The notes under the pieces are model-generated. The model did no database searches, was not told where the DNA came from, and saw only the letters and a list, made by a program, of their open reading frames with translations. A stretch of DNA of 20,828 nucleotides, from positions 1 to 20,828 of IMG/VR virus record IMGVR_UViG_2531839668_000013, one strand, 5' to 3'. Positions within the stretch are counted from its first letter, which is position 1, and each line of letters begins with the position of its first letter. Positions 1,944 through 20,828 of this stretch are shown here, in pieces. A program made the translations under genes and the position numbers. The DNA is from a virus (taxonomy: Duplodnaviria > Heunggongvirae > Uroviricota > Caudoviricetes).

Positions 1944-1957
1944 TTTTCGTCACCTCC

Positions 1958-6006: not shown

Positions 6007-6020
6007 GGTGTTTACTCCGT

Positions 6021-6799: not shown

Positions 6800-6802
6800 G
6801 CG

Positions 6803-7006
6803 TTACTCCCACAGATTGACAGTTTCAGCCACGGGCGCGGTCTGAACGTCGGGCAGTTCGACGGCGGTGCCGTGTGGCAGCACCGCACCCAGTTCAGCCA
6901 GTCCCGGATTTGCGGCGAGCACGGTCTCAACCACGCCCTCAGTGCGCCCGTAATACCGGACACAGATGGCGTCGAGCGTGTCGCCCTGTAGCGCAAAGGT
7001 CTTCAT
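6803..7006 (-). CDS. X: Tail protein X (LysM-like), 67 aa
   Basis: MKTFALQGDTLDAICVRYYGRTEGVV... P2 gpX-like; start trimmed to internal ATG 7004-7006, which overlaps the L stop. Confidence 0.8.
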   Translation of the reverse strand: MKTFALQGDTLDAICVRYYGRTEGVVETVLAANPGLAELGAVLPHGTAVELPDVQTAPVAETVNLWE

Positions 7007-7515: not shown

Positions 7516-7614
7516 GACTACCTCTGAAAAGTCGGGCGGTGGACGCCGGTGCAGTGTCAGGTGATTCACCCTCACTGACCGGCGTGCCGCCCTGGCGCGG
7601 GGCGCATTCGGTTG

Positions 7615-8358
7615 TTAACTGGCTTTCTTTTTCGGGCGTCCACGTTTTGCCGGTGTCACGCTCCGGGTCTTACGCGGGGCGCGGGTGGCCGCTTTGGGTT
7701 GCGGCTCCGGCTTCGGTTTCAGCTCCCGCTCCAGTCGTTCAATCTCTTTTTTGACGCCTGCCTGACAGTCGAGCTGTGTCGCACGTTGCAGGTGAGCCAG
7801 CGCACCGGCGGCATCACCACCGTCACGCAGAAACAGACCGGTGATTTTGTGCAGCTTTGCGCGCACTTCATCAGGCATGTCAGCAGCGGCAGTCAGTTCA
7901 AGGGTCTCCGTCAGCAGGCGGGTATCCACAGACTCACCGGCCGCGTGGGCGCGCATGGCCGCAAGCGCCACCTCCTCGGTGAACATGTACGGCGGGGTGC
8001 GGCGGTGTTTACCCGGCATGGTCAGACCGTATTTCAGGGCATAACGGGCAATCTCCAGCGCACCGGCAATATCGCCGGTATCCAGACGCCACAGCATGAC
8101 CGTCATCAGAATGTCATCCTGTGCGCCTTTGCCCTGCTCCAGCACGCCGTTCACCCACGGCAACCAGAACGGCAGCAGTTCGCGCTTTTTCGCGGCCTTC
8201 AGCTCTTTTGAATAAATCGCTTTCAGTGTGCGCTGGTCTGCGGCGAGCTTAACCAGCATCTGCTCATAGACAGTTGCATGTCGCAGCGGGGCGGCTTCCC
8301 GCTGCGCGGTCATCGCTGCCGAGACCCGCATCATGTGGCGCTGTGCGGGACTCGTCAT
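7615..8358 (-). CDS. M: Terminase endonuclease (small) subunit M, 247 aa
   Basis: P2 gpM size and position; basic C-terminal tail. Confidence 0.85.
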   Translation of the reverse strand: MTSPAQRHMMRVSAAMTAQREAAPLRHATVYEQMLVKLAADQRTLKAIYSKELKAAKKRELLPFWLPWVNGVLEQGKGAQDDILMTVMLWRLDTGDIAGALEIARYALKYGLTMPGKHRRTPPYMFTEEVALAAMRAHAAGESVDTRLLTETLELTAAADMPDEVRAKLHKITGLFLRDGGDAAGALAHLQRATQLDCQAGVKKEIERLERELKPKPEPQPKAATRAPRKTRSVTPAKRGRPKKKAS

Positions 8359-8361
8359 CGG

Positions 8362-9435
8362 TTACGCTCCCGGCTCTGCGGTCGCCTTAGCCGGTGTGGA
8401 GAAATCACCGACCTTAATTTTTTCCACCAGACAACCGGCGGCGTAGTCCTCCACCACGTAATCAATGTTCATTGACTCGTAGTTCTCCACGCGGTCGAGT
8501 TTCGGGTTTTCCTCAATCACGCGGCGATGGCTGTCATCCATGTAGTAGATGGACAGGTTTTCCAGCTTCGTGATGAGCATCGCATCCGCCGGGAAGTACG
8601 GGACGCGTACCGCTGGCAGGTTGCCGATGCGTTTCTGGCTGATGATGACGTCAGCGGCCAGCATTTCGCTGTTGTCCTGCTCCTTGTTGACGATGGGAAA
8701 ATACTTGTCCGCCAGTAGCTGACGCCCCACAATCACCACAAGGTCAGGGTCTTCCTGATACCACGGTTCAATCAGGTTGTTGGTCGCATCCATCACCAGT
8801 GCATCAAGGCTGGCATAATCACCGCCCTTACCCACGCGGATGACCTCAGAGGTGGTGTGCCCTTCCTCGTCAGTGACCTTGCTCATCACGCGCGCCGGGG
8901 CTTCATTGCGGTATTTCTGCAGCCAGCCGACCGCCACATCCTGCAGCATCGGATTGCTGCTGCGGTCAGAGGTTTCGGCACGCTTCACGCCGTTAAAACC
9001 GGCCATGATGAAATCAAGGGACTGACGTTTGATAATGGCGTTACGGACACGGAGCTGGAAATCCTGATAACGCGCCCACAGGTCAAGCGTTTTGTAGCGG
9101 ATATAAAAATCGAAGTTAATCTGGTCGCATTCGTACTTGTTTGACGCCAGCTTCGAGAAGTCCTTCGGCTGACGCTCGGTGCCACCGGCAGTGTCGGTGG
9201 TGCTGGCGATGGAGCCGGTGACACCGATACCAATTTTTTCCCCTTTCATTTCGCTGACCGGCACAATGTTGATGCGGGTCAGAAAGTCAGAAGACTCCTG
9301 CATGGTGTTCATCAGGGTCTGGGTGACCGACGGTTCAACGGTGAATTTTTTCGACACATCACCGGCGTCGATGCCGTTCAGTTCGGCAACACGGGACAGG
9401 TAGGCATTAAATTTAAAGCGGGTTTCCTGGCGCAT
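8362..9435 (-). CDS. N: Major capsid protein N, 357 aa
   Basis: P2 gpN size and position between O and M. Confidence 0.9.
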   Translation of the reverse strand: MRQETRFKFNAYLSRVAELNGIDAGDVSKKFTVEPSVTQTLMNTMQESSDFLTRINIVPVSEMKGEKIGIGVTGSIASTTDTAGGTERQPKDFSKLASNKYECDQINFDFYIRYKTLDLWARYQDFQLRVRNAIIKRQSLDFIMAGFNGVKRAETSDRSSNPMLQDVAVGWLQKYRNEAPARVMSKVTDEEGHTTSEVIRVGKGGDYASLDALVMDATNNLIEPWYQEDPDLVVIVGRQLLADKYFPIVNKEQDNSEMLAADVIISQKRIGNLPAVRVPYFPADAMLITKLENLSIYYMDDSHRRVIEENPKLDRVENYESMNIDYVVEDYAAGCLVEKIKVGDFSTPAKATAEPGA

Positions 9436-9493
9436 AGTTTTTCCTGAAATTAAGGGTTAATCGTGAAGGTTTTCCCGGACTGACTGACGCCGG

Positions 9494-10348
9494 TCAGCAG
9501 TTCGTCATCAGGGCGTCACCGCCACCGCCGGTGGCTTTACTGCGGCGCTGCTGGGTCAGACTTTCGGTGTGGTCGAGACTGTTTTTCAGGCGGGTGAATG
9601 CCTGACTGGTTTCATCCGCCCTGTCAGTCACATCCTGCTTAAGTGCGGAAAAGGCGGTTTCCATCTCAGCAAGGCGCTGCTCAGTGGCGCTCAGTTTTTC
9701 CTGCACATGCTCAGCGACAGCGGTCACCGCTTCATGCACGTCATTCAGACGGGCGTCATCGCTGGCCTGTTTGCGGCCAAAAATGGATTTCACCTTTTCG
9801 GTCAGGGCGGTGAACACGGTTTCAGGCAGGTCTTCAAATTCCAGCTCAACAGGCGTTGCCACTGAAATCAGGTTTTCAGGGCTTAATTTGAAGCGGTTCA
9901 GAGGGTTGTGTTTTGCCGTGCGGCAGAATTCCAGGTATTCCGTGCCGAGGCTTGCCGGGTCATCGGTGACGGCCAGACCCACCAGATAACATTTGCCGGT
10001 ATTGGCAAAGTTCGGCTGAATTTCCATTGAGGTATAGACCTTCTGCGCGGCCTTGTTCATCGCGATAAGGTCATCGGTCGGGGTGATTTTCGCAAACAGC
10101 GCCCATTTGCCTTTCAGCGCCGAATCATCGTCAATCTTTTCGGCCTTCAGTTCGACCACATCGCCATAACGCTTAAAAATACCGTCAGGCAGGATGCCGC
10201 GCAGATGTTCCAGGTTAATGCGGCAACCATAGACACGCGGGTCAAAGGTTTCGGCCATTTCCTGAATATCCTGCGCACTGATGACACGCCCGTCACAGGT
10301 GTCACCCTCAACGCCGATACGAAAGAATTTTGAGACTTTTTTTGCCAT
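9494..10348 (-). CDS. O: Capsid scaffolding protein O, 284 aa
   Basis: MAKKVSKFFRIGVEGDTCDG... P2 gpO-like; start trimmed to ATG at 10346-10348. Confidence 0.85.
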   Translation of the reverse strand: MAKKVSKFFRIGVEGDTCDGRVISAQDIQEMAETFDPRVYGCRINLEHLRGILPDGIFKRYGDVVELKAEKIDDDSALKGKWALFAKITPTDDLIAMNKAAQKVYTSMEIQPNFANTGKCYLVGLAVTDDPASLGTEYLEFCRTAKHNPLNRFKLSPENLISVATPVELEFEDLPETVFTALTEKVKSIFGRKQASDDARLNDVHEAVTAVAEHVQEKLSATEQRLAEMETAFSALKQDVTDRADETSQAFTRLKNSLDHTESLTQQRRSKATGGGGDALMTNC

Positions 10349-10521
10349 TGTCAGGAGTCCTGAATAGTGATTAGAGGAGTCACATGTCGGCATCAGTTTC
10401 CCGACGATGCGCATCCTCCGCCATCAGTCCCGGATGGCTTATCACTGACACAACAGCACCTTAGCGAATCGCGGGGCGCGACTCAGTAGCCTTGCCGTGT
10501 ATTCATCACGGCGAGGTATTC

Positions 10522-12294
10522 ATGACCATCACCACAGACACCACTCTTTTACACGACCCGCGTCGTCAGGCGGCGCTGCTGTACTGGCAGGGATTTTCCG
10601 TGCCGCAGATTGCCGCCATGTTGCAGATGAAACGCCCGACGGTGCAGAGCTGGAAACAGCGCGACGGCTGGGACAGCGTTGCCCCCATCAGCCGTGTCGA
10701 AATGAGTCTGGAAGCGCGGCTGACCCAGCTCATTATCAAACCGCAGAAAACCGGCGGTGACTTCAAGGAAATTGACCTGCTCGGACGCCAGATTGAACGA
10801 CTGGCACGGGTCAACCGTTACAGCCAGACCGGCAACGAGGCAGACCTTAATCCGAACGTCGCTAACCGCAACAAAGGCGGGCGGCGCAAACCGAAAAAGA
10901 ATTTTTTCAGTGACGAGGCCATCGAAAAGCTGGAGCAGATTTTCTTTGAGCAGTCTTTCGACTATCAGTTGCACTGGTATCGTGCCGGGCTTGAGCACCG
11001 CATCCGCGATATCCTGAAATCCCGCCAGATTGGCGCAACGTTTTATTTTTCCCGCGAGGCGCTGCTGCGCGCCCTGAAAACCGGCCATAACCAGATTTTT
11101 CTGTCGGCCAGTAAAACGCAGGCGTATGTGTTCCGTGAATACATCATCGCCTTTGCCCGGCTGGTTGACGTTGACCTGACCGGTGACCCGATTGTCCTGG
11201 GCAATAACGGCGCAAAACTGATTTTTCTCGGCACCAACTCCAACACCGCACAGAGCCATAACGGCGACCTGTACGTCGACGAGATTTTCTGGATCCCGAA
11301 TTTTCAGGTACTGCGTAAGGTGGCATCAGGTATGGCCTCACAGAGTCACCTGCGCTCGACCTATTTCTCCACCCCGTCCACGCTGGCGCACGACGCCTAC
11401 CCGTTCTGGTCGGGTGAACTGTTTAACCGGGGACGCGCCAGCGCCGCCGAACGCGTGGAAATCGACGTCAGTCATAACGCTCTTGCCGGTGGTCTTCTCT
11501 GTGCGGACGGCCAGTGGCGGCAGATTGTCACCATTGAGGACGCCCTGAAAGGCGGCTGCACATTGTTCGACATTGAGCAGCTCAAACGCGAAAACAGCGC
11601 CGACGATTTTAAAAACCTGTTCATGTGTGAATTTGTTGACGACAAGGCATCGGTGTTCCCGTTCGAGGAGCTGCAACGCTGCATGGTCGACACGCTGGAA
11701 GAATGGGAAGACTATGCGCCGTTTGCCGCGAATCCGTTCGGCTCCCGCCCGGTATGGATTGGTTACGACCCGTCACACCGTGGCGACAGCGCCGGATGCG
11801 TGGTACTGGCACCTCCGGTGGTGGCCGGTGGCAAATTCAGAATACTTGAGCGTCACCAGTGGAAAGGCATGGACTTTGCCACTCAGGCTGAATCTATCCG
11901 CAAACTCACCGAGAAATACAACGTCGAATACATCGGTATTGATGCCACCGGCCTCGGTGTCGGCGTGTTCCAGCTCGTGCGCTCGTTCTATCCCGCCGCA
12001 CGCGACATCCGCTACACGCCGGAAATGAAAACCGCAATGGTGCTCAAGGCAAAAGACGTTATCCGCCGTGGCTGTCTGGAATATGACGTCAGCGCCACCG
12101 ACATCACCAGCTCGTTTATGGCTATCCGCAAGACCATGACCAGCAGCGGACGCAGCGCCACCTATGAGGCCAGCCGCAGCGAGGAAGCCAGCCACGCAGA
12201 CCTCGCCTGGGCGACCATGCACGCCCTGTTAAATGAGCCACTCACCGCCGGTATCAGCACCCCGCTGACATCCACCATTCTGGAGTTTTACTGA
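10522..12294 (+). CDS. P: Terminase ATPase (large) subunit P, 590 aa
   Basis: MTITTDTTLLHDPRRQAALLYWQGFSVPQIAAM... P2 gpP-like; divergent from O; RBS gagg upstream of the trimmed start. Confidence 0.9.
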   Translation: MTITTDTTLLHDPRRQAALLYWQGFSVPQIAAMLQMKRPTVQSWKQRDGWDSVAPISRVEMSLEARLTQLIIKPQKTGGDFKEIDLLGRQIERLARVNRYSQTGNEADLNPNVANRNKGGRRKPKKNFFSDEAIEKLEQIFFEQSFDYQLHWYRAGLEHRIRDILKSRQIGATFYFSREALLRALKTGHNQIFLSASKTQAYVFREYIIAFARLVDVDLTGDPIVLGNNGAKLIFLGTNSNTAQSHNGDLYVDEIFWIPNFQVLRKVASGMASQSHLRSTYFSTPSTLAHDAYPFWSGELFNRGRASAAERVEIDVSHNALAGGLLCADGQWRQIVTIEDALKGGCTLFDIEQLKRENSADDFKNLFMCEFVDDKASVFPFEELQRCMVDTLEEWEDYAPFAANPFGSRPVWIGYDPSHRGDSAGCVVLAPPVVAGGKFRILERHQWKGMDFATQAESIRKLTEKYNVEYIGIDATGLGVGVFQLVRSFYPAARDIRYTPEMKTAMVLKAKDVIRRGCLEYDVSATDITSSFMAIRKTMTSSGRSATYEASRSEEASHADLAWATMHALLNEPLTAGISTPLTSTILEFY

Positions 12295-13328
12295 TGAGCA
12301 AGAAAAAAGGGAAAACACCGCAACCTGCGGCAAAAAAAATGACTGCCAGCGCCCCGAAAATGGAGGCATTCACCTTTGGCGAGCCGGTGCCGGTACTCGA
12401 CCGCCGTGACATTCTGGATTACGTCGAGTGCATCAGTAACGGCAGATGGTATGAGCCACCGGTCAGCTTTACCGGCCTGGCAAAAAGTCTGCGTGCTGCC
12501 GTGCATCACAGCTCGCCGATTTACGTCAAACGCAATATTCTGGCCTCGACATTTATCCCGCATCCGTGGCTTTCCCAGCAGGATTTCAGCCGCTTTGTGC
12601 TGGATTTTCTGGTGTTCGGTAATGCGTTTCTGGAAAAGCGTTACAGCACCACCGGTAAGGTCATCAGACTGGAAACCTCACCGGCAAAATATACCCGCCG
12701 TGGCGTGCAAGAGGATGTTTACTGGTGGGTGCCGTCCTTCAACGAGCCGACAGCCTTCGCGCCCGGCTCCGTGTTTCACCTGCTGGAGCCGGATATTAAT
12801 CAGGAGCTGTACGGCCTGCCGGAATATCTCAGCGCCCTTAATTCTGCCTGGCTGAATGAATCAGCCACACTGTTCCGCCGCAAGTATTACGAAAACGGCG
12901 CTCATGCCGGATACATCATGTACGTCACTGATGCCGTGCAGGATCGCAACGATATCGAAATGCTCCGCGAAAACATGGTGAAGTCGAAAGGCCGCAACAA
13001 CTTTAAAAATCTGTTTCTCTATGCCCCACAGGGGAAAGCCGACGGCATCAAAATTATCCCGCTCAGTGAAGTGGCAACGAAGGACGATTTTTTTAATATC
13101 AAAAAAGCCAGCGCCGCTGACCTGCTGGACGCGCACCGCATCCCCTTTCAGTTGATGGGCGGCAAGCCGGAGAACGTCGGGTCGCTGGGTGATATTGAGA
13201 AAGTGGCAAAGGTCTTTGTCCGCAATGAGCTTATCCCGTTACAGGACAGGATCCGCGAAATAAACGGCTGGCTCGGTCAGGAGGTCATCCGATTTAAAAA
13301 CTACTCACTGGACACTGACAACGGCTGA
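12294..13328 (+). CDS. Q: Portal (capsid vertex) protein Q, 344 aa
   Basis: P2 gpQ size and position, immediately upstream of cos; start overlaps P stop. Confidence 0.9.
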   Translation: MSKKKGKTPQPAAKKMTASAPKMEAFTFGEPVPVLDRRDILDYVECISNGRWYEPPVSFTGLAKSLRAAVHHSSPIYVKRNILASTFIPHPWLSQQDFSRFVLDFLVFGNAFLEKRYSTTGKVIRLETSPAKYTRRGVQEDVYWWVPSFNEPTAFAPGSVFHLLEPDINQELYGLPEYLSALNSAWLNESATLFRRKYYENGAHAGYIMYVTDAVQDRNDIEMLRENMVKSKGRNNFKNLFLYAPQGKADGIKIIPLSEVATKDDFFNIKKASAADLLDAHRIPFQLMGGKPENVGSLGDIEKVAKVFVRNELIPLQDRIREINGWLGQEVIRFKNYSLDTDNG

Positions 13329-13333
13329 ACATC

Positions 13334-13355
13334 GCCGCCTGCGGGCGGCTTTTTT
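13334..13355 (+). terminator. Intrinsic terminator after Q
   Basis: GCCGCC-tgcg-GGCGGC hairpin followed by TTTTTT. Confidence 0.7.
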
Positions 13356-13497
13356 ACACCCCGTCATCACCCCCTCACACGCTCACCACCGCACAAAACA
13401 CCCCGCAGACACACCAACGCCTCAACGGGCAGACTAAGCGCCGTCACGACGCGCTGAGACGCTGAAAAAATAAAATCCGCACCACCGCCAGCGCGCA

Positions 13498-13516
13498 GTG
13501 CTTTCCCCGCCTCGCC
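13498..13516. other. cos: cos cohesive-end site (P2 19-nt cos)
   Basis: gtgctttccccgcctcgcc is the exact reverse complement of the P2 cohesive end GGCGAGGCGGGGAAAGCAC. Confidence 0.85.
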
Positions 13517-13661
13517 CGCCCGCTTCATGGGGCGGTTTTAATGCAGTTGCAATACCGCTTTTGAGCCACGCCAGTCCTGGCGGACGCACAGCCAGAACAT
13601 GTAACTCCGGCACATGCAAAACCATGCACAGATAAAAACGGGGATATCACAGAAAAAGCAC

Positions 13662-13688
13662 AAAAAAACCGGCATTCATGGTGCCGGT
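13662..13688 (-). terminator. Intrinsic terminator for minus-strand transcripts leaving the cargo island
   Basis: ACCGGCA-ttcatgg-TGCCGGT stem; the minus strand reads the hairpin followed by a T-run. Confidence 0.6.
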
Positions 13689-13827
13689 TCTGATCAATTT
13701 TTATAGTTGTCACTGGCCGCGCAATGTACCAATCACACTGTTGAGGCACGTACTGACAACAATTAGCAGAAAAATCGTTGTCCACGGACTTTCATAAATG
13801 TGAGATAACATCTTGATATAGATCATT

Positions 13828-14022
13828 TTATTTACTCATTCTGATGTGATTTAACAGGTATTTTATAACGACCATAAGCTCATCTTTACTGGCTTGTTCA
13901 ACCATTTTTTCAGTGTAACTGTCCACCTCGCGTGAGCTCAGGTCGTTATTTGAGGCCATTACAGTTAGCCTCTTTGCCCAGTCGGCATAAGGGTCTTTAA
14001 TTGATGAAAGGGAACTATGCAT
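13828..14022 (-). CDS. Hypothetical small protein (65 aa from internal Met; ORF extends to 14109)
   Basis: ORF in AT-rich cargo DNA with a downstream minus-strand terminator; no recognisable family; weak RBS. Confidence 0.4.
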   Translation of the reverse strand: MHSSLSSIKDPYADWAKRLTVMASNNDLSSREVDSYTEKMVEQASKDELMVVIKYLLNHIRMSK

Positions 14023-14452
14023 GTCCAAAAATCTCGAATTATTCAACCAACAGACGGCAGAAATCTTTGCGGTGCTATGGGATAACTTTCCTGTACCACA
14101 AGTCATCACCTACAAAAAATTTAACGCCGCGTTACCTGATGACTACTTTGACCAACTTAACTCACCAGAAATGAAAGCACTGAATCAGTTGCGTAGTGTG
14201 GTTGATGGCACATTCACTTTCTTAAGCGAAAACGGCTATATTCTGTACGGAACAGACCATCAGACCGGTTTTCATGATGTGCGACTGACCGAGAAAGCAC
14301 TCGCGGTGCTCAACAAAAAACCCGAAGCACTTGGCGGTAATGAAACGATGGGAGATAAGATTATCAGCGCAGTGAAGGACGGGACACCTGGTGTTATTGC
14401 CGGTGCAGTAACAAACCTGCTTACCCTCGGTGTCAATCTGATAACTAGCTAA
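14021..14452 (+). CDS. Hypothetical protein, 143 aa, with C-terminal Gly/Ala-rich hydrophobic segment
   Basis: Long ORF in AT-rich DNA; AGGGA-like RBS about 8 nt upstream; followed by terminator-like hairpin; no recognised family. Confidence 0.6.
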   Translation: MSKNLELFNQQTAEIFAVLWDNFPVPQVITYKKFNAALPDDYFDQLNSPEMKALNQLRSVVDGTFTFLSENGYILYGTDHQTGFHDVRLTEKALAVLNKKPEALGGNETMGDKIISAVKDGTPGVIAGAVTNLLTLGVNLITS

Positions 14453-14465
14453 CGCCTTACTTCAC

Positions 14466-14510
14466 CTCCGCCAGCACTGAAAGCAAGTTTCAGCACCGGC
14501 GGAGTTTCTT
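14466..14510 (+). terminator. Terminator-like compound hairpin after the 143-aa gene
   Basis: CTCCGCC...GGCGGAG outer stem with inner CTGAAA/TTTCAG stem, followed by TTTCTT. Confidence 0.5.
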
Positions 14511-14560
14511 AAATTTGTTCCATCTCAAACATTGAGATATCTTTTTCATTTCACCCGGAA

Positions 14561-14998
14561 TTACTTAATTACATTAAAGGTGAATCCCTTTACCCCTCGA
14601 CCAAAAACAGCCCCTCCATCCGATATATAAACAGAATTATCACAAAGACATATATCACCAAATGAATACTTTCCAAGCAAGTCTTTATAAATAGAAATAA
14701 GCTCTTGAGCCACATAAGGAATCATTAATTTTGATAACCCTTGTCCCCGCTCACTTTGCTTAACCCAAACATAATCTATTTGATATATTACAGCGTCCTC
14801 TGTAGATTCAATGATGAATGAACAAAAACCTATTTTCTCATTATCGTCATTCACCACTGCCACCACACTCACAAAATTACTGCAAAGTGCCTGATTATAC
14901 TTCTCCTCTGCTACGCTACAACAATCTTCAAAATCCCCGACTCCCAAAGAGATATCGGTGATAACATTCCCTTTCTTATCAATGCAAACTCTTACCAT
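14561..14998 (-). CDS. GNAT-family N-acetyltransferase-like protein, 145 aa
   Basis: Motif VWVKQSERGQGLSKLM resembles the GNAT acetyl-CoA binding motif (R-x-x-G-x-G) preceded by beta-strand-like segments; AGGT RBS; 45 bp downstream of A on the same strand. Confidence 0.55.
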   Translation of the reverse strand: MVRVCIDKKGNVITDISLGVGDFEDCCSVAEEKYNQALCSNFVSVVAVVNDDNEKIGFCSFIIESTEDAVIYQIDYVWVKQSERGQGLSKLMIPYVAQELISIYKDLLGKYSFGDICLCDNSVYISDGGAVFGRGVKGFTFNVIK

Positions 14999-15043
14999 AT
15001 ATAATTACCTGGCGTTATCTTGACACATTATTTATCAATAAGT

Positions 15044-17314
15044 TTAATCCACAAACCCCGGCCACTCATCAGTGACCGGATACGTGAATTTTTTCCCGCC
15101 ATAATTTACGGTTGCCCCACGCGCCAGCGCCTCAAGCTCCCATCGCTGCGGCCTGATACCGTTCTGAGCAAGGTCAACGCGGATACGGGTGATTTGCATT
15201 CGTTCCGACCGGGTCAGTCTGGCCGATGGCGCAATTTCATGTGGTTTTAACGGACTTCCGTTTCTTTGCTGACGGTTTGGCGTTCGCAGGTCGTGTTTTA
15301 ATGCGCCCCTGAGCGCCCTCACGACCTCCGGTTCATTCCATTCGATAACACCGTCATCAACCAGATTAAGCACTGCTGCGGCGTGCTCAGAAGGCGTGGG
15401 AGCCGGTAACGAAGTATCACCACCAGTGAGCTTTCCACAGTTATTGACAGGACTCCGAGGCGCGGCGATGCCGCTTTTTAAAGTCAAAGGCTCAACGACC
15501 GGCACTTTCGGAACAATGCGCCAGTCCATCGTTCTGGTGATATGAATATGACGCGCGCCGAGATGCGGCGCGTAAATGCCGACCACTCTCTCGACTTCTT
15601 CCTCGTACTCGTTAACTTCATCCGACGGACTACGGGCAACCCTGACAGTCTGACAATCGCGCGGAACATTTGCCCCACCCTGCGCGCTGATATACAACGC
15701 AAAATCACCACTGTCTGCGGCAGCGCGTGCAGCCTCGACGCGTTCGTCAAACTCATCAGCAATGCTGACGCCGCGAGGCAATTTGCGTAGTTCACGGTAA
15801 GCCCCCATTGTCGGCAGGCCAACCGTTTTAAATTGCGGAATGCGCCACGTTGACGCCCATGCGGTAACAGCCGCGGCAGTGTCTTTCAGCGGCCTGCCGG
15901 TATCGTTATCGAGCTGACCATCCAGTGCATAGCCATCGATGTTTTTTGAGATGTATTTCGCGATATATCCCGCAGCACCGCCCCGGTTAAGGTGTTTTGC
16001 CTGAAAACGGTTTCGCGCGGCTCCTCTTTCGTCACCATCCTCTTTGAGCGCATAGCGACGCATGATTTCGATAATCTGGTTACGCTGGCGTGGATTACAA
16101 AAAAGCATCATATGCCAGTGCGGCGTTCCGTCGTGGTGTGGCTCGACGACTCGCAAACCGTAGACCTGTAAATCATTATCCTTGAATGCCGTGCGCATCA
16201 GGCTCCAGATGCGGCAGAGATAACGCTGCGCATCCTTTGGATTAAATGCCTCATCATTCCAGCCGTGATTTAGCTGGACGGTTTTACTTTCGCCTTTTCC
16301 GACCTGACGTGTCGGGTGATACTTTGACGGCGCGGTCAGAGTGATAAACATCCCCACATCACCCTCTGCGGCGGCGTAACGCTCAATACCGGCGATGGTG
16401 TTCATCAGCTCCATCCGGCGAATTTCAGGATTAGAAATACTGCCCATCACCTTACTGATAAGGTCGATGCGCTCGCCGGTTTCCCTGTTTTCGAGGTCAC
16501 ACGATTTAAGAAATTCCAGATTTGCCTGGCGGCGTGCACGCACATCACGAATGGCATGTTTACTGGCATAAGGAGAACGGTCTTTATTGACCTCCCCGAC
16601 AGCAATCAGTAACGCCTCATGCCAGCGCATACGCTGGCCTTTAAGCTGATGAGTCCACCACTCATCGTTAAACAGACGGGCAATGGCAGAATATGCCTGC
16701 CTCGTGGTCATCTGTCCTTTACGGTATTTTTTCCAGTAGAGAGGGGAAATATTGAAAGCACGTGCAGCGCCAGCAACATGACCATACAGATGCGCCTGCG
16801 CCTCATCTGTAAACAGCGATTCTTTCTCGCCATGTGCATCAACCCATGCATCGCAGAGTTCCTCATACATCATGAAAAGCTGCGATGAGATACGGGCGGC
16901 AAACTTTTTCAGCTCCTTGTCATTCATCCCCGGCAGACGCGCATAATGGTCACGCTCTGCCAGAAACAGCAACGACGCGTCGGTGTTCATTTCATGGCGC
17001 TGATTCACGCGCTCAATACGCGGCCATAAACGGCGCTGAAAAGTGGATGTGAGGAAATAAAACCCGTGCACCGGGCTTTTATTGCGCCGGATGTAGTCAT
17101 AGCGTGAAGTAAACAGCGAGCGCAAAAAGTAAGGCAGGCGATTAATCGTGGATAAAACACCTTGCACCTGACGCATCTCGTCACGTGTAAGGGGTCTTTC
17201 GCGCCCGACGGCCTCGCGTGGCGCGTTCCATGCATAAGCACCGGTAAACGTCTCACCGGTGCCTGCGGCAAATGCTGACGGAGGGACAAAACGCCCGGAG
17301 GCTTTAACGGCCAT
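15044..17314 (-). CDS. A: Replication initiation protein A (rolling-circle nickase), about 756 aa
   Basis: P2 gpA-like throughout (PHWHMMLF, YIAKYISK active-site region); start trimmed to MAVKASGRF. Confidence 0.9.
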   Translation of the reverse strand: MAVKASGRFVPPSAFAAGTGETFTGAYAWNAPREAVGRERPLTRDEMRQVQGVLSTINRLPYFLRSLFTSRYDYIRRNKSPVHGFYFLTSTFQRRLWPRIERVNQRHEMNTDASLLFLAERDHYARLPGMNDKELKKFAARISSQLFMMYEELCDAWVDAHGEKESLFTDEAQAHLYGHVAGAARAFNISPLYWKKYRKGQMTTRQAYSAIARLFNDEWWTHQLKGQRMRWHEALLIAVGEVNKDRSPYASKHAIRDVRARRQANLEFLKSCDLENRETGERIDLISKVMGSISNPEIRRMELMNTIAGIERYAAAEGDVGMFITLTAPSKYHPTRQVGKGESKTVQLNHGWNDEAFNPKDAQRYLCRIWSLMRTAFKDNDLQVYGLRVVEPHHDGTPHWHMMLFCNPRQRNQIIEIMRRYALKEDGDERGAARNRFQAKHLNRGGAAGYIAKYISKNIDGYALDGQLDNDTGRPLKDTAAAVTAWASTWRIPQFKTVGLPTMGAYRELRKLPRGVSIADEFDERVEAARAAADSGDFALYISAQGGANVPRDCQTVRVARSPSDEVNEYEEEVERVVGIYAPHLGARHIHITRTMDWRIVPKVPVVEPLTLKSGIAAPRSPVNNCGKLTGGDTSLPAPTPSEHAAAVLNLVDDGVIEWNEPEVVRALRGALKHDLRTPNRQQRNGSPLKPHEIAPSARLTRSERMQITRIRVDLAQNGIRPQRWELEALARGATVNYGGKKFTYPVTDEWPGFVD

Positions 17315-17579
17315 ATGAGCCAAAAGCCTCTGAACAACGCTTGCTGAGTTGCTCAACCTGCGCGTTTAAATCAGCAAAAGACTTTGCGCTTCCGGTCAGA
17401 ATATCGTGATGCATCAGGCCGGAAACAAGCTGGCTTAATTTCGGGTAATAACCAACCACCGCCAGCCATTCCTGACCGGCGTTTTTACCGCTTTCAGCTC
17501 TCTTTTTCTCGTGGAGAATAAACTGAAAGCTGTCACTGGTAACGACATAACGTTCGCCAATTTCAATACGAATACTCAT
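17304..17579 (-). CDS. Small early-operon protein, P2 orf83-position, 91 aa
   Basis: Position immediately upstream of A; unknown function. Confidence 0.6.
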   Translation of the reverse strand: MSIRIEIGERYVVTSDSFQFILHEKKRAESGKNAGQEWLAVVGYYPKLSQLVSGLMHHDILTGSAKSFADLNAQVEQLSKRCSEAFGSYGR

Positions 17580-17800
17580 GCCGTTCTCCGGTAATGTTTG
17601 TTTTTTGCTTCAAAGACTGACTGGCAGGAAACACAACGCGTGGCTGACGGATAAGCCGCACGACGGGCAGCAGGTATTGGCGCGTCACACTCTTCGCAAA
17701 CCAGCGCAGAAACACCGCAATGCTTTACCCTTGCCGCGTTAATCTGGCGCTCCAGTAATTCAGCCTGTTGTTCCTGAATAAAATCTACGTTGTCCGGCAT
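17576..17800 (-). CDS. TraR/DksA-like C4 zinc-finger protein, 74 aa
   Basis: C-x2-C ... C-x2-C spacing (CEECDAPIPAARRAAYPSATRCVSC) typical of the TraR family; P2 orf82 position. Confidence 0.7.
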   Translation of the reverse strand: MPDNVDFIQEQQAELLERQINAARVKHCGVSALVCEECDAPIPAARRAAYPSATRCVSCQSVFEAKNKHYRRTA

Positions 17801-18105
17801 TACCAGTTCCTTTTGTCGTTAAGGTTTTTAAATTCATCAGCGCAATAGCTGGCGATTTCTGTCGTTAATTTCGTCAGTTCATCCACGGAGGAGATTTGCT
17901 TGTTAAATACAGCGCGTTTCACAAGTAAATTGACCACATCAGACAGGAGGTTTAATTCGTTCTGATAAATCGCGATAACAGACTCAGTTATTTCGCGTTT
18001 TTCTTTATCAAGACCAAGTTGAATAAGAGATAAATCGCCATTTTTCATAACGGCGATTTTTAAGGCGTTATTCAGTAATACAACTGAACGAGAACAGGAC
18101 ATCAA
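17800..18105 (-). CDS. Hypothetical AT-rich early-operon protein, 101 aa
   Basis: ORF with start and stop overlapping neighbours (ATGA junctions); noticeably AT-rich relative to flanking genes. Confidence 0.55.
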
Positions 18106-18326
18106 AGCACCTCCCCGCGAGACAATCCGATATTGTGAAATTTTTCCGACTCCTGACTGAGCAGCTCGACTATCTCCACGCGGGATAACTCCGCCTTTGT
18201 GATGTGGCGAATCATGGCGTCAAGATGAGAAGAAAAGCGCGTCGCTGCGTCGGCCTGTGCTTCGGTTCTGGCCTGTTGCAGCAGTAATGCGTATTTACCG
18301 CACTGATTTTCAGAAACTGTATGCAT
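18102..18326 (-). CDS. Small early-operon protein, P2 orf80-position, 74 aa from MHTVSENQ
   Basis: GGAG RBS 6 nt upstream of internal ATG at 18324-18326; the ORF extends to 18359. Confidence 0.55.
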
Positions 18327-18389
18327 GACTTTCTCCAGGCAAAAAGAAGCCCCGCACAATTAAGTGCGTTAAAAACTCTGGTTAATTAC

Positions 18390-18890
18390 TTAATGCAGAT
18401 ATTGCTCTGGTTTTACCGACGTCAGAATTGTCGGTGCATACTCAAACAGACTGAATAATTCACGTAATGCACGGAATAAAGCATCACGCCAGTAACATGA
18501 TTCTTCATTAATGCGCCAGTACGGCTGATTGAATTCTTTTTCTGTCAATCCCGCATGCATAAATAAAGTGCGACGCTGACTGACTGTTAAAAAACTAATA
18601 TATGCATACTCACTCGCGCCAACCTGACGACGTTTTGAGAATGCCCCACGCAATTCATCAATTGCACATACCAGTCGTTCACGTTCGACGTCGTTCATTT
18701 CTTCAAAACGCATCGTTGCGTGACGCTGTTTTAACTGCGCATGAAAGCAAACCGTTAGCCGTTCGCGCTCCATCATCTGATTATAATAATCACATGTATC
18801 CTGCCAGCGAGGAACGGCAAGATGCTTACCAATTATCCGGCGCATAGCTGCTGGCTGTTTTTCAACGAGATTGAGCGTCATCACTGTCAT
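18390..18890 (-). CDS. B: Replication protein B (helicase loader), 166 aa
   Basis: MTVMTLNLVEKQPAAMRRIIGKHLAVPRWQDTCDYYNQMMERERL... P2 gpB-like. Confidence 0.85.
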   Translation of the reverse strand: MTVMTLNLVEKQPAAMRRIIGKHLAVPRWQDTCDYYNQMMERERLTVCFHAQLKQRHATMRFEEMNDVERERLVCAIDELRGAFSKRRQVGASEYAYISFLTVSQRRTLFMHAGLTEKEFNQPYWRINEESCYWRDALFRALRELFSLFEYAPTILTSVKPEQYLH

Positions 18891-19057
18891 TCCCATACCC
18901 TCCGGCTTTTCAGAAAGGTCAGAGCCTTTTTTAACGGACTCTGTTTTTTGGTGCGGATAATGATTCCCTTACGCCCCTTACCGTGGGTGATGGTGAAGTC
19001 AATCGCCCTGGGGCTTTCGTTACGCAGTAACTGAGCAATACAACGCGGTTCACTCAT
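18887..19057 (-). CDS. Small protein, P2 orf78-position (start uncertain: 19057 or 19084)
   Basis: ORF between cox and B; basic C-terminus. Confidence 0.5.
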   Translation of the reverse strand: MSEPRCIAQLLRNESPRAIDFTITHGKGRKGIIIRTKKQSPLKKALTFLKSRRVWE

Positions 19058-19059
19058 AA

Positions 19060-19332
19060 TCACAACCCCATCCACAAAAGCCATGCATCACGCTGTTCAA
19101 CTGGTCGGTTATAAAACGCCTCTCGTACAGCGCGATTAAACTCTGGAATGAAAACCCACTTCTCACCGACACGAGCGTTCGGCTTACTTGGATCACGAAG
19201 CTCAATAACTGGCAATTTATTCTCTTTTACCATCTTGACTACAGCCGTTTCTGGCTTACCAAGTAACTCTGCAAACTTAACCGTATGTACCGCATCAATC
19301 GGGTACTGAATCACATAGTCATTGACTTCCAT
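19060..19332 (-). CDS. cox: Cox (excisionase and repressor of the lysogenic promoter), 90 aa
   Basis: First gene of the early operon, divergent from C; ...KLPVIELRDPSKPNARVGEKWVFIPEFN... resembles P2 Cox. Confidence 0.8.
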   Translation of the reverse strand: MEVNDYVIQYPIDAVHTVKFAELLGKPETAVVKMVKENKLPVIELRDPSKPNARVGEKWVFIPEFNRAVREAFYNRPVEQRDAWLLWMGL

Positions 19333-19371
19333 TGATTAGCCCTTTTTGCTTTCGTGTTACCCTTATTAGAT

Positions 19372-19413
19372 CCAGTCCCTTCTAGGTCGCCCCTGTCCTT
19401 TCTAGGGACTGGC
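19372..19413. promoter_or_regulatory. Repeat cluster GTCC(C/T)TTCTAGG x2 within an inverted repeat CCAGTCCCT...AGGGACTGG: putative Cox or second operator at the lysogenic promoter
   Basis: Direct repeats at 19375-19386 and 19395-19406; inverted 9-bp arms at 19372-19380 and 19405-19413. Confidence 0.4.
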
Positions 19414-19426
19414 TAACACACTCAAA

Positions 19427-19473
19427 AGGTCACCAATACACAACCTTTTGACGGGAATATAAGTCACCAATAG
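19427..19473. promoter_or_regulatory. Direct repeats AGGTCACCAATAC / AAGTCACCAATAG flanking the candidate Pe -10: putative C repressor operator half-sites
   Basis: Two 10/10 identical GTCACCAATA copies at 19429-19438 and 19463-19472, 34 bp centre to centre. Confidence 0.45.
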
Positions 19474-19484
19474 GTTACTGTCAA
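19456..19484 (-). promoter_or_regulatory. Candidate early promoter Pe (minus strand: TTGACA - 17 bp - TATATT)
   Basis: Near-consensus sigma70 -35/-10 on the minus strand pointing toward cox; -35 abuts the C start codon; flanked by direct repeats. Confidence 0.5.
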
Positions 19485-19778
19485 ATGCAGACATTCGAAA
19501 AACTGAAAGCGATTAGGAAAGCAGAAGGCTTAACACAGGCGAAATTCAGCGAAATTAGCGGGATAGCTCTAGGAACAGTCAAAAATTACGAAAGTGGGCA
19601 TAAAGACCCTGGTCTCAGCATCGTTATGCGAGTCACAAATACGCCTTTATTTAAAAAATATACGCTCTGGTTAATGACTGGTGATACGTCACCACAAGCT
19701 GGTCAGATCGCGCCGGCTCTCGCACACATTGGGCAAAAACCAACAGAATCAGACCACTCCGAAAAACAGACTGGTTAA
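19485..19778 (+). CDS. C: Immunity repressor C, 97 aa
   Basis: HTH-containing small protein; ...KYTLWLMTGDTSPQAGQIAPALAHIGQ... resembles the P2 C C-terminus; divergent from cox, upstream of int. Confidence 0.8.
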   Translation: MQTFEKLKAIRKAEGLTQAKFSEISGIALGTVKNYESGHKDPGLSIVMRVTNTPLFKKYTLWLMTGDTSPQAGQIAPALAHIGQKPTESDHSEKQTG

Positions 19779-19847
19779 CACTCTATAAACATTACATTTT
19801 CACTATTTGTTACCAAGATGGTGAATACAGCGTCAGAGGGCTTTCTT

Positions 19848-20828
19848 ATGTCAATTAAGAAGCTCGATGATGGACGCTATGAAGTGGACATTAGACCTCG
19901 CGGTCGCGACGGAAAACGCATCCGCAGGAAATTTGAAAGAAAAGCTGAGGCTGTAGCATTTGAGCGATACACAATCGCCTACGCCAGCCAGAAAGAATGG
20001 GCAGGTCAGCGAGCAGATCGCAGAACTTTGAGTGAGTTGCTGGACATCTGGTGGAAATATCACGGGCAAAACCACGAGCATGGAACAAAAGAGTTTAATC
20101 ATCTGCTCAAAACCATCAGCGGCATAGGTGATATACCAGTGAGCCGGATGAGCAAAAGAGCTTTGATGGATTATCGTTCCATGCGACTACGTGATGGTAT
20201 CAGTGCCGCAACGATAAACCGTGACATGTACCGATTATCCGGCATGTTCACAAAATTAATTCAATTGGATGAATTTTCCGGGCAACACCCAATTCACGGA
20301 CTGCCGCCACTGGCGGAGGCCAACCCTGAAATGACGTTCCTGGAAAAAGCAGAAATCGAAAAACTGTTAAATGTTTTGGATGGTGATGACTTACTTGTCG
20401 CACTTTTATGTCTGAGCACTGGAGGAAGATGGACGGAAGTTGCCACGCTAAAACCAGCACAGATTACAAATTGCAGGGTTACCTTCCTGAAAACCAAAAA
20501 CGGTAAAAAGCGAACCGTGCCGATTTCTGAGGAACTGGAGAAAAAAGTTAAAGAGGAGGCCAGCGCTAAATTATTCAAAGTTGATTATGAGAAGTTTTGC
20601 GGGATTTTACGCAGAGTGAAGCCAGATATACCACCCAATCAGGCAACCCACATCCTGCGGCATACATTCGCAAGCCATTTCATGATGAATGGGGGCAATA
20701 TAATCGCACTGCAACAGATTCTGGGACATGCGAGCATTCAGCAGACGATGGCCTATGCGCACCTTGCGCCTGACTACCTGCAAAATGCCGTCGCACTGAA
20801 TCCTCTAAAAGGCGGAGTGACGTTATAA
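19848..20828 (+). CDS. int: Tyrosine integrase, about 326 aa
   Basis: MSIKKLDDGRYEVDIRPRGRDGKRIRRKFE... P2 Int-like with tyrosine recombinase C-terminal motifs (HILRHTF...LGHASIQQTMAYAH); start trimmed to RBS-preceded ATG; stop TAA at the window end. Confidence 0.85.
   Translation: MSIKKLDDGRYEVDIRPRGRDGKRIRRKFERKAEAVAFERYTIAYASQKEWAGQRADRRTLSELLDIWWKYHGQNHEHGTKEFNHLLKTISGIGDIPVSRMSKRALMDYRSMRLRDGISAATINRDMYRLSGMFTKLIQLDEFSGQHPIHGLPPLAEANPEMTFLEKAEIEKLLNVLDGDDLLVALLCLSTGGRWTEVATLKPAQITNCRVTFLKTKNGKKRTVPISEELEKKVKEEASAKLFKVDYEKFCGILRRVKPDIPPNQATHILRHTFASHFMMNGGNIIALQQILGHASIQQTMAYAHLAPDYLQNAVALNPLKGGVTL

What the first reader, a model, noticed from the sequence alone, without database searches (positions are those of the whole stretch)
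13828..14452. Divergent ORF pair with start codons interlocked in an ATGCATG palindrome
The 143-aa plus-strand ORF (ATG 14021-14023) and the minus-strand small ORF (ATG 14022-14020) share the sequence ATGCATG, so their start codons overlap on opposite strands. Each has its own strand-specific terminator (14466-14510 plus, 13662-13688 minus). The 143-aa protein ends in a Gly/Ala-rich hydrophobic segment (GVIAGAVTNLLTLGVNLI) suggestive of membrane insertion. Overlapping divergent starts could give mutually exclusive translation initiation, a toxin/regulator-like arrangement.
Basis: seen in the sequence. Interest (0 to 1): 0.55.

Follow-up and report, generated by a model that had tools for sequence, protein, structure and literature searches.

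The report
Head-to-head overlapping phage accessory genes
Two small genes of unknown function in a P2-type prophage really do start back-to-back on opposite strands with start codons sharing two bases; both are conserved and translated, with a third overlooked membrane-peptide gene beside them, but they are separable accessory genes rather than a toxin-antitoxin pair.

Summary
The plus ATG (14021-14023) and minus ATG (14022-14020) share two bases inside CATG. Only GCATG is conserved, and ATGCATG is not itself a palindrome. The window is a P2-like E. coli prophage. The pair lies at the cos-proximal edge of the known gpA-gpQ accessory/defence hotspot.

Both ORFs are genuine genes (PHROG 2266 and 2454; dN/dS 0.05-0.3). 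The two-base overlap holds in every locus that has both genes. Codon-invariant sites (L5 CTC and L7 TTA in the 143-aa gene; S4 TCC in the 64-aa gene) show that each gene's ribosome-binding site sits in the other's first codons.

A third, mostly unannotated gene encodes a 33-aa single-pass membrane peptide (13710-13811, minus). It lies between the 64-aa gene and the minus terminator.

The 143-aa protein is an acidic winged-helix protein of a large uncharacterised phage family. Its C-terminal tail is probably a packed amphipathic helix, not a membrane anchor.

Each gene occurs without the others in related phages, which argues against a toxin-antitoxin system.

With no intergenic DNA, the two mRNAs must be complementary across both start regions. 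Excludon-like reciprocal expression is therefore plausible but untested. Function is unknown.

The parts
12294..13328 (+). Portal protein gene (gpQ), one border of the P2 accessory hotspot
   Evidence: RefSeq annotation of the identical sequence; ORF list
13498..13516 (.). P2/P4-type cos cohesive-end sequence (GTGCTTTCCCCGCCTCGCC, the reverse complement of GGCGAGGCGGGGAAAGCAC)
   Evidence: Read from the sequence. The same motif is in the P4 cos-containing inserts of Rousset et al. Table S2A. The identity of the 19-nt end is from memory of Ziermann & Calendar 1990.
13665..13691 (-). Intrinsic terminator closing the minus-strand two-gene unit, just before cos
   Evidence: Terminator scan: 10-bp stem plus T-run. 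The same element is present in L004, L003 and L022.
13710..13811 (-). Overlooked 33-aa single-pass membrane peptide gene (MLSHIYESPWTTIFLLIVVSTCLNSVIGTLRGQ). An in-frame upstream ATG at 13826 would give 38 aa in this window only.
   Evidence: It is the only frame free of stops in 12 loci. Substitutions: pS 0.68-0.77 against pN 0.20-0.25 in divergent pairs. Kyte-Doolittle best 19-aa window 2.05. It is annotated in Klebsiella phage ST147-VIM1phi7.1 and retained alone in phage SEN1.
13828..14022 (-). 64-aa gene (PHROG 2454), predicted three-helix protein with invariant A-x-NNDLSSRE motif
   Evidence: PHROG match 1-64/64, E 1e-38. 54 homologue clusters, mostly 63-64 aa. Alignment A1. dN/dS 0.07-0.29. 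AlphaFold2 pLDDT 74, three helices.
14011..14013 (+). GGA core of the Shine-Dalgarno for the 143-aa gene; it is also codon Ser4 (TCC) of the 64-aa gene
   Evidence: TCC in 14 of 14 loci, while the other conserved Ser columns use 2-4 codons. Junction alignment.
14020..14023 (.). CATG junction where the two start codons share 14021-14022
   Evidence: GCATG is invariant in all loci with both genes.
14030..14041 (-). Ribosome-binding region of the 64-aa gene embedded in codons 4-7 of the 143-aa gene. The SD is GAGGT in most loci and GAGAT here, preceded by an A/U-rich TAAATAA.
   Evidence: Leu5 is CTC in 14/14 loci and Leu7 is TTA in 14/14, while the other 10 conserved Leu columns use 3-5 codons. 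The Kluyvera locus, which lacks the small gene, has AAC ATA here.
14021..14452 (+). 143-aa gene (PHROG 2266): acidic winged-helix protein with two C-terminal helices
14466..14510 (+). Hairpin plus U-tract terminator for the 143-aa gene; unidirectional, with no U-tract on the minus strand
   Evidence: Folds of both strands
14561..14998 (-). GNAT acetyltransferase gene: the variable hotspot cargo in this prophage
   Evidence: Pfam and RefSeq annotation. It is replaced by a retron, DinI, Fic, ComEC-like, Hcp or AAA_13 genes in relatives.
15044..17356 (-). Replication endonuclease gene (gpA), the other border of the hotspot
   Evidence: RefSeq annotation

Best explanation
Location and content. This is the cos-proximal end of the gpA-gpQ accessory hotspot of a P2-family prophage. 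It holds three small, individually separable accessory (moron-type) genes:
- a 143-aa acidic winged-helix protein on the plus strand, with its own one-way terminator;
- on the minus strand, a 64-aa three-helix protein followed 16 nt later by a 33-aa single-pass membrane peptide, closed by a strong terminator just before cos.

Shown. The 143-aa and 64-aa genes abut head-to-head with no intergenic DNA. Their ATGs share two bases, and each gene's ribosome-binding site lies inside the first 4-7 codons of the other. Both reading frames and both embedded ribosome-binding sites are under selection.

Inferred. Each promoter must lie inside or beyond the other gene, so the two mRNAs are complementary across both Shine-Dalgarno sequences and both start codons. 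Expression is therefore expected to be reciprocally antagonistic, through polymerase collision and RBS-masking duplexes open to RNase III. This would work like a miniature protein-coding excludon.

No minus-strand terminator separates the upstream minus-strand genes (gpA, cargo) from the 64-aa/peptide unit. My best guess is that early, lytic or SOS read-through turns on the 64-aa and peptide genes and opposes the winged-helix gene, which would otherwise be expressed on its own.

The biochemical roles are unknown. By location they most likely act in phage-phage or phage-host conflict.
For: Context. The sequence is 100% identical to a P2-like prophage of E. coli O157:H16. The gpA-gpQ interval next to cos is the described P2 hotspot (PMC9122126). 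These very proteins are listed there only as 'hypothetical' parts of hotspot arrangements.

Real genes. Both match PHROG families of unknown function over their full length. dN/dS is 0.05-0.29.

Conserved start of the small gene. Met1 is nearly invariant, and Met22 is lost in the divergent subgroup.

Conserved junction. The 2-nt overlap is identical in all loci with both genes.

Reciprocal RBS embedding. L5 CTC and L7 TTA in the large gene and S4 TCC in the small gene are the only codon-invariant Leu and Ser columns.

Third gene..

Separability..

5' stub retention. In two independent lineages, deletion variants keep the first 17-19 codons of the large gene upstream of the intact small partner (SW9; L045/L046). 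This fits expression signals for the small gene lying there.

Terminators. The plus terminator is one-way, and no minus terminator is found upstream of the small operon in three cargo contexts.

Precedent. The excludon concept is from PMC3377988.
Against: - No transcription start sites are known, and I could not find a convincingly conserved sigma-70 promoter for either gene. The best minus candidate, TAGTCA-16-TAAATT about 89 nt inside the large gene, is in 11/14 loci but weak. The plus candidates differ between subgroups.
- Rho could stop read-through across the untranslated antisense of the large gene.
- In loci where the cargo is co-oriented with the large gene (L021/L022, L008, L006, L019), the read-through route from gpA is unlikely, so the small operon must have another promoter.
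- The junction may be kept only because any change to CATG destroys a start codon, without any regulatory role.
- The function of all three proteins is unknown. There are no hits to defence or TA models.
Confidence: 0.55

Rival explanations
1. Frozen junction. The overlap is a by-product of cassette insertion or deletion in a recombination-prone hotspot. It persists only because CATG cannot mutate without killing a start codon. The genes are expressed independently and the arrangement has no regulatory meaning.
For: - All enterobacterial instances descend from one ancestral junction.
- The genes are separable and functionally independent.
- Most distant family members have no divergent partner.
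- CATG sites with open frames in both directions are common by chance.
Against: - With zero intergenic distance, antisense overlap of the two 5' regions is unavoidable if both genes are expressed in the same cell.
- The embedded RBS codons are under selection.
- A distant homologue in Mu-like phages has an analogous CATGATG junction with an unrelated small divergent gene.
- Divergent overlaps are otherwise strongly avoided: 331 of 14,958 overlaps (PMC2174442).
Confidence: 0.3
2. Toxin-antitoxin or abortive-infection module. The membrane peptide (or the 64-aa protein) is a toxin, and the winged-helix protein is its repressor or antitoxin.
For: - There is a 33-aa hydrophobic peptide resembling type I toxins in size.
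- The partner protein has a winged-helix fold.
- The genes lie in a defence hotspot.
Against: - The peptide and 64-aa genes persist where the winged-helix gene is deleted (SW9/SI22), and the peptide alone persists in SEN1.
- The winged-helix gene persists alone in L015 and L024.
- There are no TA, Abi or PADLOC matches.
- There is no operator-like inverted repeat at the junction.
- The winged-helix protein is acidic, with net charge -5.
Confidence: 0.08
3. The winged-helix protein is a transcription factor for the adjacent variable cargo. It would be a hotspot 'gatekeeper', and the small operon would be unrelated passengers.
For: - The protein has a PadR/MarR-like sequence motif (weak PDB profile hits, E about 0.1).
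- It always sits between cos and the cargo.
- In Y. ruckeri and K. aerogenes it lies 54 nt upstream of, and co-oriented with, an AAA_13 ATPase gene.
Against: - The cargo is of unrelated kinds and in either orientation.
- Distant family members sit in tail, nin and Mu-early regions with no cargo.
- The protein is acidic and no repeated operator was found.
- It does not reach any Pfam HTH family threshold.
Confidence: 0.07

Closest known systems
Accessory (moron) genes of the P2 gpA-gpQ, cos-adjacent hotspot (old, tin and the systems of Rousset et al. 2022, PMC9122126)
   Same: - Same genomic slot, between replication gene A and portal gene Q next to cos.
- Patchy presence among related prophages (79 of 5,426 complete E. 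coli genomes).
- Own terminators.
- The proteins are already listed as 'hypothetical' members of hotspot arrangements.
   Different: - No anti-phage activity has been shown, and these genes are not among the cloned systems.
- No match to PADLOC models.
- This cassette behaves as a semi-fixed flank next to the truly variable cargo rather than as the cargo itself.
Excludon: a long antisense 5'UTR spanning a divergent gene (Listeria; PMC3377988)
   Same: The genes are divergent, and the mRNA of one must be antisense to the 5' part of the other, so reciprocal expression is expected.
   Different: - Here the coding regions themselves overlap at the start codons, and each RBS is encoded within the other gene.
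- No transcript mapping exists.
- The overlap may be short and symmetric rather than one long antisense RNA.
Face-to-face Pe/Pc (P2) and pR/pL (186) lysis-lysogeny promoters
   Same: Same phage family, and convergent promoters whose transcripts overlap and interfere. (Comparison from general knowledge.)
   Different: Those promoters lie in an intergenic switch region with repressor operators. Here there is no intergenic region, no identified operator, and the proteins are unrelated to C, Cox, CI or Apl.
PadR/MarR/YjcQ-type winged-helix proteins
   Same: - Helix-strand-helix-helix-hairpin topology.
- The motif G-x-F-x-F-L-x-E-N-G-Y-I ... V-R-L-T-E-K-x-L.
- C-terminal helices after the wing.
   Different: - Below every family threshold: E about 0.1 against PDB profiles, and 3 of 111 members weakly hit DUF4364.
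- Acidic protein, with no operator found.
Type I toxin-antitoxin loci (hok/sok, ldr/rdl, ibs/sib, symE/symR)
   Same: A small hydrophobic peptide gene, and antisense overlap covering a ribosome-binding site.
   Different: - The antisense partner would be a protein-coding mRNA that overlaps the 64-aa gene, not the peptide gene.
- The peptide survives without any of the partners (SEN1).
- No family match.

Membership tests
P2-family gpA-gpQ hotspot accessory cassette | Located between replication gene A and portal gene Q, adjacent to cos | tested here: met
   cos is at 13498-13516. The hotspot definition is in PMC9122126.
P2-family gpA-gpQ hotspot accessory cassette | Variable presence among otherwise related prophages | tested here: met
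   2,164 genomes match the flanks, but only 79-122 carry the cassette. Partial versions exist.
P2-family gpA-gpQ hotspot accessory cassette | Anti-phage (exclusion or defence) activity | not testable with these tools
   Needs phage challenge of a clone or lysogen. These genes are not among the systems tested by Rousset et al..
Toxin-antitoxin system | Partners co-occur, and the toxin is not kept without its antitoxin | tested here: not met
   Each of the three genes is found without the others.
Toxin-antitoxin system | Homology to a known toxin or antitoxin family | tested here: not met
   Pfam, NCBIfam and PADLOC give nothing above threshold.
Toxin-antitoxin system | Toxicity neutralised by the partner | not testable with these tools
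   Requires expression experiments.
Excludon / antisense-coupled divergent genes | Divergent genes whose transcripts overlap in antisense | tested here: inconclusive
   The overlap is forced by zero intergenic distance and by RBSs embedded in the partner's codons. No start sites are mapped, and promoter candidates are weak.
Excludon / antisense-coupled divergent genes | Reciprocal expression of the two sides | not testable with these tools
   Needs strand-specific RNA-seq or reporter fusions.
Winged-helix (PadR/MarR-like) DNA-binding regulators | Winged-helix fold | tested here: met
   [not shown]
Winged-helix (PadR/MarR-like) DNA-binding regulators | Reaches a curated family threshold | tested here: not met
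   No Pfam or NCBIfam hit for the window protein. 3 of 111 relatives weakly hit DUF4364. PDB profile E 0.09-0.12.
Winged-helix (PadR/MarR-like) DNA-binding regulators | Binds an operator near its own gene | tested here: inconclusive
   There is no inverted or direct repeat at the junction and the protein is acidic. Binding itself was not testable.
Tail-anchored or integral membrane protein (claim for the 143-aa protein) | A hydrophobic segment long and apolar enough to span the membrane, conserved in the family | tested here: not met
   The best 19-aa Kyte-Doolittle window is 1.58, just under the usual 1.6. The aligned segment in 111 relatives has median hydropathy 0.58 and a median of 4 charges. 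The helix is confidently placed in a compact model.
T7 gp5.5 / gp5.7 (annotation of the phage Midge homologue) | Detectable profile similarity | tested here: not met
   hhalign of the 111-sequence profile against T7 gp5.5 and gp5.7 gives probability 0.2% and 1.7%. The template was a single sequence, so this is a weak test.
Known or candidate anti-phage defence systems (PADLOC-DB 2.0) | HMM match of any component | tested here: not met
   There are no hits for the three proteins.

The most novel reading that the evidence does not exclude
The interlocked starts could be a selected, bistable antisense switch: a protein-coding mini-excludon in which each mRNA masks the other's ribosome-binding site. 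It would toggle a P2-family prophage between a lysogen-state winged-helix factor and a lytic- or SOS-state pair made of a 64-aa protein and a 33-aa membrane peptide. Together these would form a new three-gene exclusion or abortive-infection (or counter-defence) module. The recurrence of a similar back-to-back junction with an unrelated small gene in Mu-like phages would then mean that the large winged-helix family is generally paired with head-to-head partners.
Probability: 0.15. Interest if true: 0.6.

Novelty: new variant of a known kind. Interest (0 to 1): 0.35.

Why it matters
Head-to-head gene overlaps are the rarest overlap class in prokaryotes, because promoters and ribosome-binding sites must fit inside coding sequence. 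This locus is a clean, conserved example. Both ribosome-binding sites are demonstrably encoded within the partner's first codons, and simple synonymous mutations could test whether the layout enforces either/or expression.

The work also makes three practical points:
- It flags a widely missed 33-aa membrane-peptide gene next to cos in P2/186-type phages.
- It points to a probable mis-annotation on the opposite strand in RefSeq.
- It gives a confident fold for a large, uncharacterised family of phage accessory proteins (664 clusters at 50% identity).

The cassette sits in a hotspot already known to be rich in anti-phage systems, so it is a reasonable low-cost candidate for phage-challenge screens. 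None of this is a surprise at the level of principle.

Tried and rejected
- **Protein families.** Pfam, NCBIfam and PADLOC scans of all three proteins gave nothing above threshold.
- **RNA families.** Rfam on the window gave nothing. One sub-threshold sRNA hit over the terminator region was ignored.
- **T7 gp5.5/5.7.** The similarity claimed in the phage Midge annotation was not reproduced.
- **Operators.** A repeat search at the junction found none.
- **Promoters.** A position-weight scan across 14 loci gave no convincingly conserved promoter on either strand. The tool's own scan gave no more promoter-like sites than shuffles.
- **Internal start.** The 64-aa ORF starting at its internal Met22, which has a good upstream AGAGG, was considered and rejected. 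Met22 is Leu in the divergent subgroup, and codons 1-21 are under purifying selection within groups.
- **Cargo partner.** The pair as a component of the neighbouring retron or a GNAT partner was rejected, because the neighbours vary freely.
- **RefSeq plus-strand ORF.** The 89-aa plus-strand ORF annotated by RefSeq over the peptide region is not intact in this window.
- **Literature.** No paper mentions the protein accessions.
Full report
**1. What the window is**

Window 5136-20828 is 100% identical to a P2-like prophage of E. coli O157:H16 strain 98-3133, inserted next to cpxP. The gene order around the finding is:
- terminase ATPase gene (10492-12294, +);
- portal gene Q (12294-13328, +);
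- the 19-nt P2/P4 cohesive-end sequence at 13498-13516 (the same motif is in the P4 inserts shown);
- the region of the finding;
- a GNAT acetyltransferase gene (14561-14998, -);
- replication endonuclease gene A (15044-17356, -).

The A-Q interval next to cos is the accessory/defence hotspot of P2-like phages described by Rousset et al. 2022 (PMC9122126). Their Table S5A lists the very proteins of this finding (WP_000042038/9, WP_000551925) as 'hypothetical' members of hotspot arrangements. Their cloned and tested systems do not include them.

**2. Checking the observation**

The start codons overlap by two bases (14021-14022) within CATG (14020-14023). ATGCATG is not itself a palindrome. In relatives only GCATG is constant, because the second minus-strand codon is CAT (His) or CAA (Gln).

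Both terminators are confirmed:
- The plus hairpin 14466-14504 followed by UUUCUU folds at -20.2 kcal/mol, z -3.65. On the minus strand it has no U-tract, so it is one-way.
- The minus terminator is at 13691-13665.

On sequence alone the pattern is not unusual. Nine CATG sites in this window open at least 60 codons in both directions, and about two are expected in composition-matched random sequence. The case for reality rests on comparison with related loci.

**3. Both ORFs are genes, and the junction is conserved**

- The 143-aa and 64-aa products match PHROG 2266 and PHROG 2454, both of unknown function, over their full lengths (E 3e-61 and 1e-38).
- Homologues occur in Escherichia, Shigella, Salmonella, Klebsiella, Citrobacter, Enterobacter, Kosakonia, Cronobacter, Yersinia ruckeri and Edwardsiella.
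- The cassette is present in 79 of 5,426 complete E. coli genomes, against 2,164 genomes that match the P2-like flanks.
- In every fetched locus with both genes, the small gene starts one base after the large gene's A. This holds even where the small protein is only 52-58% identical.
- Pairwise dN/dS is 0.05-0.25 for the large gene and 0.07-0.29 for the small gene.
- Met1 of the small protein is the conserved start. Its internal Met22 is Leu in the divergent subgroup. Codons 1-22 are constrained within each subgroup (dN 0.06 against dS 0.51) although saturated between subgroups.

**4. Each ribosome-binding site lies inside the other gene**

The Shine-Dalgarno for the small gene is the reverse complement of codons Asn4-Leu5 of the large gene. 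It reads GAGGT in most loci and GAGAT here. The GGA of the large gene's Shine-Dalgarno is the reverse complement of Ser4 (TCC) of the small gene.

The synonymous-site evidence across 14 loci is:

| Gene | Conserved columns examined | Codon-invariant columns | Other columns |
|---|---|---|---|
| 143-aa (large) | 12 Leu columns | Leu5 (CTC x14), Leu7 (TTA x14) | 3-5 different codons each |
| 64-aa (small) | 3 Ser columns | Ser4 (TCC x14) | 2 and 4 codons |

The Kluyvera locus, which lacks the small gene, has AAC ATA at codons 4-5. This is direct evidence of dual constraint, and therefore that both starts are used.

**5. A third gene**

Sixteen nucleotides after the small gene's stop there is a conserved 33-aa ORF, MLS[LH][IV]YE[NS]PWTT[IV]FLLIV..C[LI]NS[IV]IG.LRG[QK]. 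In the window it spans 13811-13710, and an extra in-frame ATG at 13826 is specific to this window. The minus terminator follows about 20 nt later.
- It is the only stop-free frame in 12 loci.
- Divergent pairs show pS 0.68-0.77 against pN 0.20-0.25.
- Its best 19-residue hydropathy window is 2.05, typical of one transmembrane helix.
- It matches no family.

RefSeq usually annotates an 89-aa plus-strand ORF over this region instead. That ORF is not intact in this window. The Klebsiella phage ST147-VIM1phi7.1 record annotates the 33-aa gene.

**6. The proteins**

The protein is acidic (11 K/R against 16 D/E), and the family's median net charge is -4. In the wider family it has median hydropathy 0.58 and a median of four charged residues, and it is confidently placed in the compact model. 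I read it as an amphipathic packing or oligomerisation helix.

*The 64-aa protein.* It is predicted, at medium confidence (pLDDT 74), to be a three-helix bundle with an invariant A-x-NNDLSSRE turn. Fold matches are non-specific.

*Family contexts.* Every distant relative of the 143-aa protein whose gene neighbourhood I fetched sits among phage genes:
- between gpU and tail X;
- in a lambdoid nin/lysis region;
- after a Mu B-like gene;
- beside a small terminase gene.

In these contexts there is mostly no divergent partner.

**7. Separability**

| Loci | Genes kept |
|---|---|
| Kluyvera locus L015 (63% identity), metagenomic P2-like locus L024 (48% identity) | 143-aa gene alone next to cos |
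| 186-like Salmonella phages SW9/SI22 | 64-aa and peptide genes. The 143-aa gene is deleted except for its first ~57 nt, which remain upstream of the small gene |
| Salmonella phage SEN1 | Peptide gene only |
| L006 | Peptide gene frameshifted |
| L012 | Peptide gene replaced |
| L014 | Peptide gene absent |

This pattern is the opposite of what a toxin-antitoxin dependency predicts. It marks the three genes as stacked, independent accessory genes.

The cargo on the far side of the 143-aa gene varies freely:
- GNAT here;
- a retron (RT plus HTH);
- DinI/Tum-like;
- Fic;
- a ComEC-like metallo-hydrolase;
- Hcp;
- an AAA_13 ATPase.

These are seen.

**8. A second, distant instance**

In Mu-like E. 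coli phage PhiKM and its relatives, a 34%-identical family member abuts an unrelated 71-aa divergent ORF at CATGATG (hhalign probability 0.2%). The starts there are adjacent or overlapping, depending on which ATG is used. In two of these contigs the large gene is truncated after 17 codons while the small partner is intact. This parallels SW9. Two independent retentions of the large gene's 5' stub suggest that it carries signals needed by the small gene. This is an inference from two cases.

**9. How it most likely works**

*Shown:* two translated genes with reciprocal embedding of their ribosome-binding sites and no intergenic DNA.

*Inferred:* promoters must lie inside or beyond the partner gene. 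The two mRNAs are therefore complementary over both Shine-Dalgarno sequences and both start codons. If both are made in one cell they should interfere, through polymerase collision and RBS-masking duplexes. The logic is that of the excludon (PMC3377988).

No minus-strand terminator was found between the upstream minus-strand genes and the small operon in three cargo contexts, and the 143-aa gene's terminator is one-way. A plausible scheme follows. Early, lytic or SOS transcription from the gpA/cargo side would read antisense through the 143-aa gene into the 64-aa and peptide genes. It would stop at the strong terminator before cos. The 143-aa gene would be expressed alone otherwise.

Weak points:
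- I could not find a well-conserved promoter on either strand. The best minus candidate, TAGTCA-16-TAAATT about 89 nt inside the large gene, is in 11 of 14 loci but scores modestly.
- Rho may stop untranslated antisense transcription.
- Loci with plus-oriented cargo need another source of minus-strand transcription.

The main rival is that the junction is a frozen by-product of cassette shuffling. It would be held in place only because CATG cannot change without destroying a start codon.

**10. Comparison with what is known, and novelty**

Divergent overlaps are the rarest overlap class: 331 of 14,958 overlaps in 58 genomes. This is attributed to the need for upstream signals (PMC2174442). So the layout is uncommon but of a known kind.

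The genes belong to catalogued families of unknown function in a known hotspot. No paper mentions their accessions, and no defence, TA or RNA family matches. The T7 gp5.5/5.7 similarity noted by the Midge annotators was not reproduced.

I rate it a new variant of a known kind, of moderate-to-low interest. It is a tidy, testable example of reciprocal RBS embedding, together with an overlooked membrane-peptide gene and a confident fold for a large orphan phage family. It has no demonstrated function and nothing that would overturn expectations.

Noticed in passing
window 13710-13826 (minus strand); L004 2829-3098, L005 2829-3098: There is a conserved 33-aa single-pass membrane peptide gene next to cos. 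In RefSeq genomes it is usually not annotated, and an 89-aa plus-strand ORF (WP_001177885) is called over it instead. That plus ORF is not intact in this window and is probably a mis-annotation.
   Followed up: yes
window 1-5430 compared with L031 (NZ_CP051001): This prophage looks tail-defective.
- ORF 4741-5430 fuses a LysC-like N-terminus to the C-terminal spike domain of gpV.
- About 1.3 kb (lysC 3' end, R, S, V 5' end) present in the otherwise identical O157:H16 prophage is missing.
- The tape-measure gene (1958-4396) follows directly, so W, J, I, H, G, FI, FII and E appear to be absent.
   Followed up: partly
[not shown]
   Followed up: no
L009 3251-3869 (phage PhiKM); L034-L046: Mu-like E. 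coli phages carry a 34%-identical family member that abuts an unrelated 71-aa divergent ORF at CATGATG. The family member is unannotated in PhiKM. In L045/L046 the large gene is cut after 17 codons while the small ORF stays intact.
   Followed up: partly
L002 5295-6723, L004 3884-5312, L005 3893-5321, L007 3571-4999: Many relatives carry a compact retron-like cassette as the cargo next to the pair: a 316-aa reverse transcriptase, a 102-aa HTH protein and a 51-aa ORF. The retron type and its ncRNA were not examined.
   Followed up: no
window 14399-14412 and 14487-14500: There is a 14-nt, 86% complementary pairing between the codons for the C-terminal helix of the 143-aa gene and the 3' arm of its terminator hairpin. 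It could compete with terminator formation. It may be chance, and its conservation was not checked.
   Followed up: no
window 14195-14212: Ser59 (AGT x13) and Thr64 (ACA x14) of the 143-aa gene are also codon-invariant across loci. This hints at another embedded nucleotide-level signal in mid-gene, on one or the other strand.
   Followed up: no
window 14561-14998 (minus strand): A lone 145-aa GNAT acetyltransferase is the only cargo here. In other strains the same GNAT and the same 143-aa protein are accompanied by an AAA_15/AAA_21 ATPase and another hypothetical protein (Rousset Table S5A), so this window seems to hold a reduced version.
   Followed up: partly
window 14461-14512; hits H74-H80: The terminator hairpin downstream of the 143-aa gene recurs at 88-92% identity next to DinI-family genes in P2-like prophages that lack the pair. 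It may be a shared boundary or recombination element of the hotspot.
   Followed up: no
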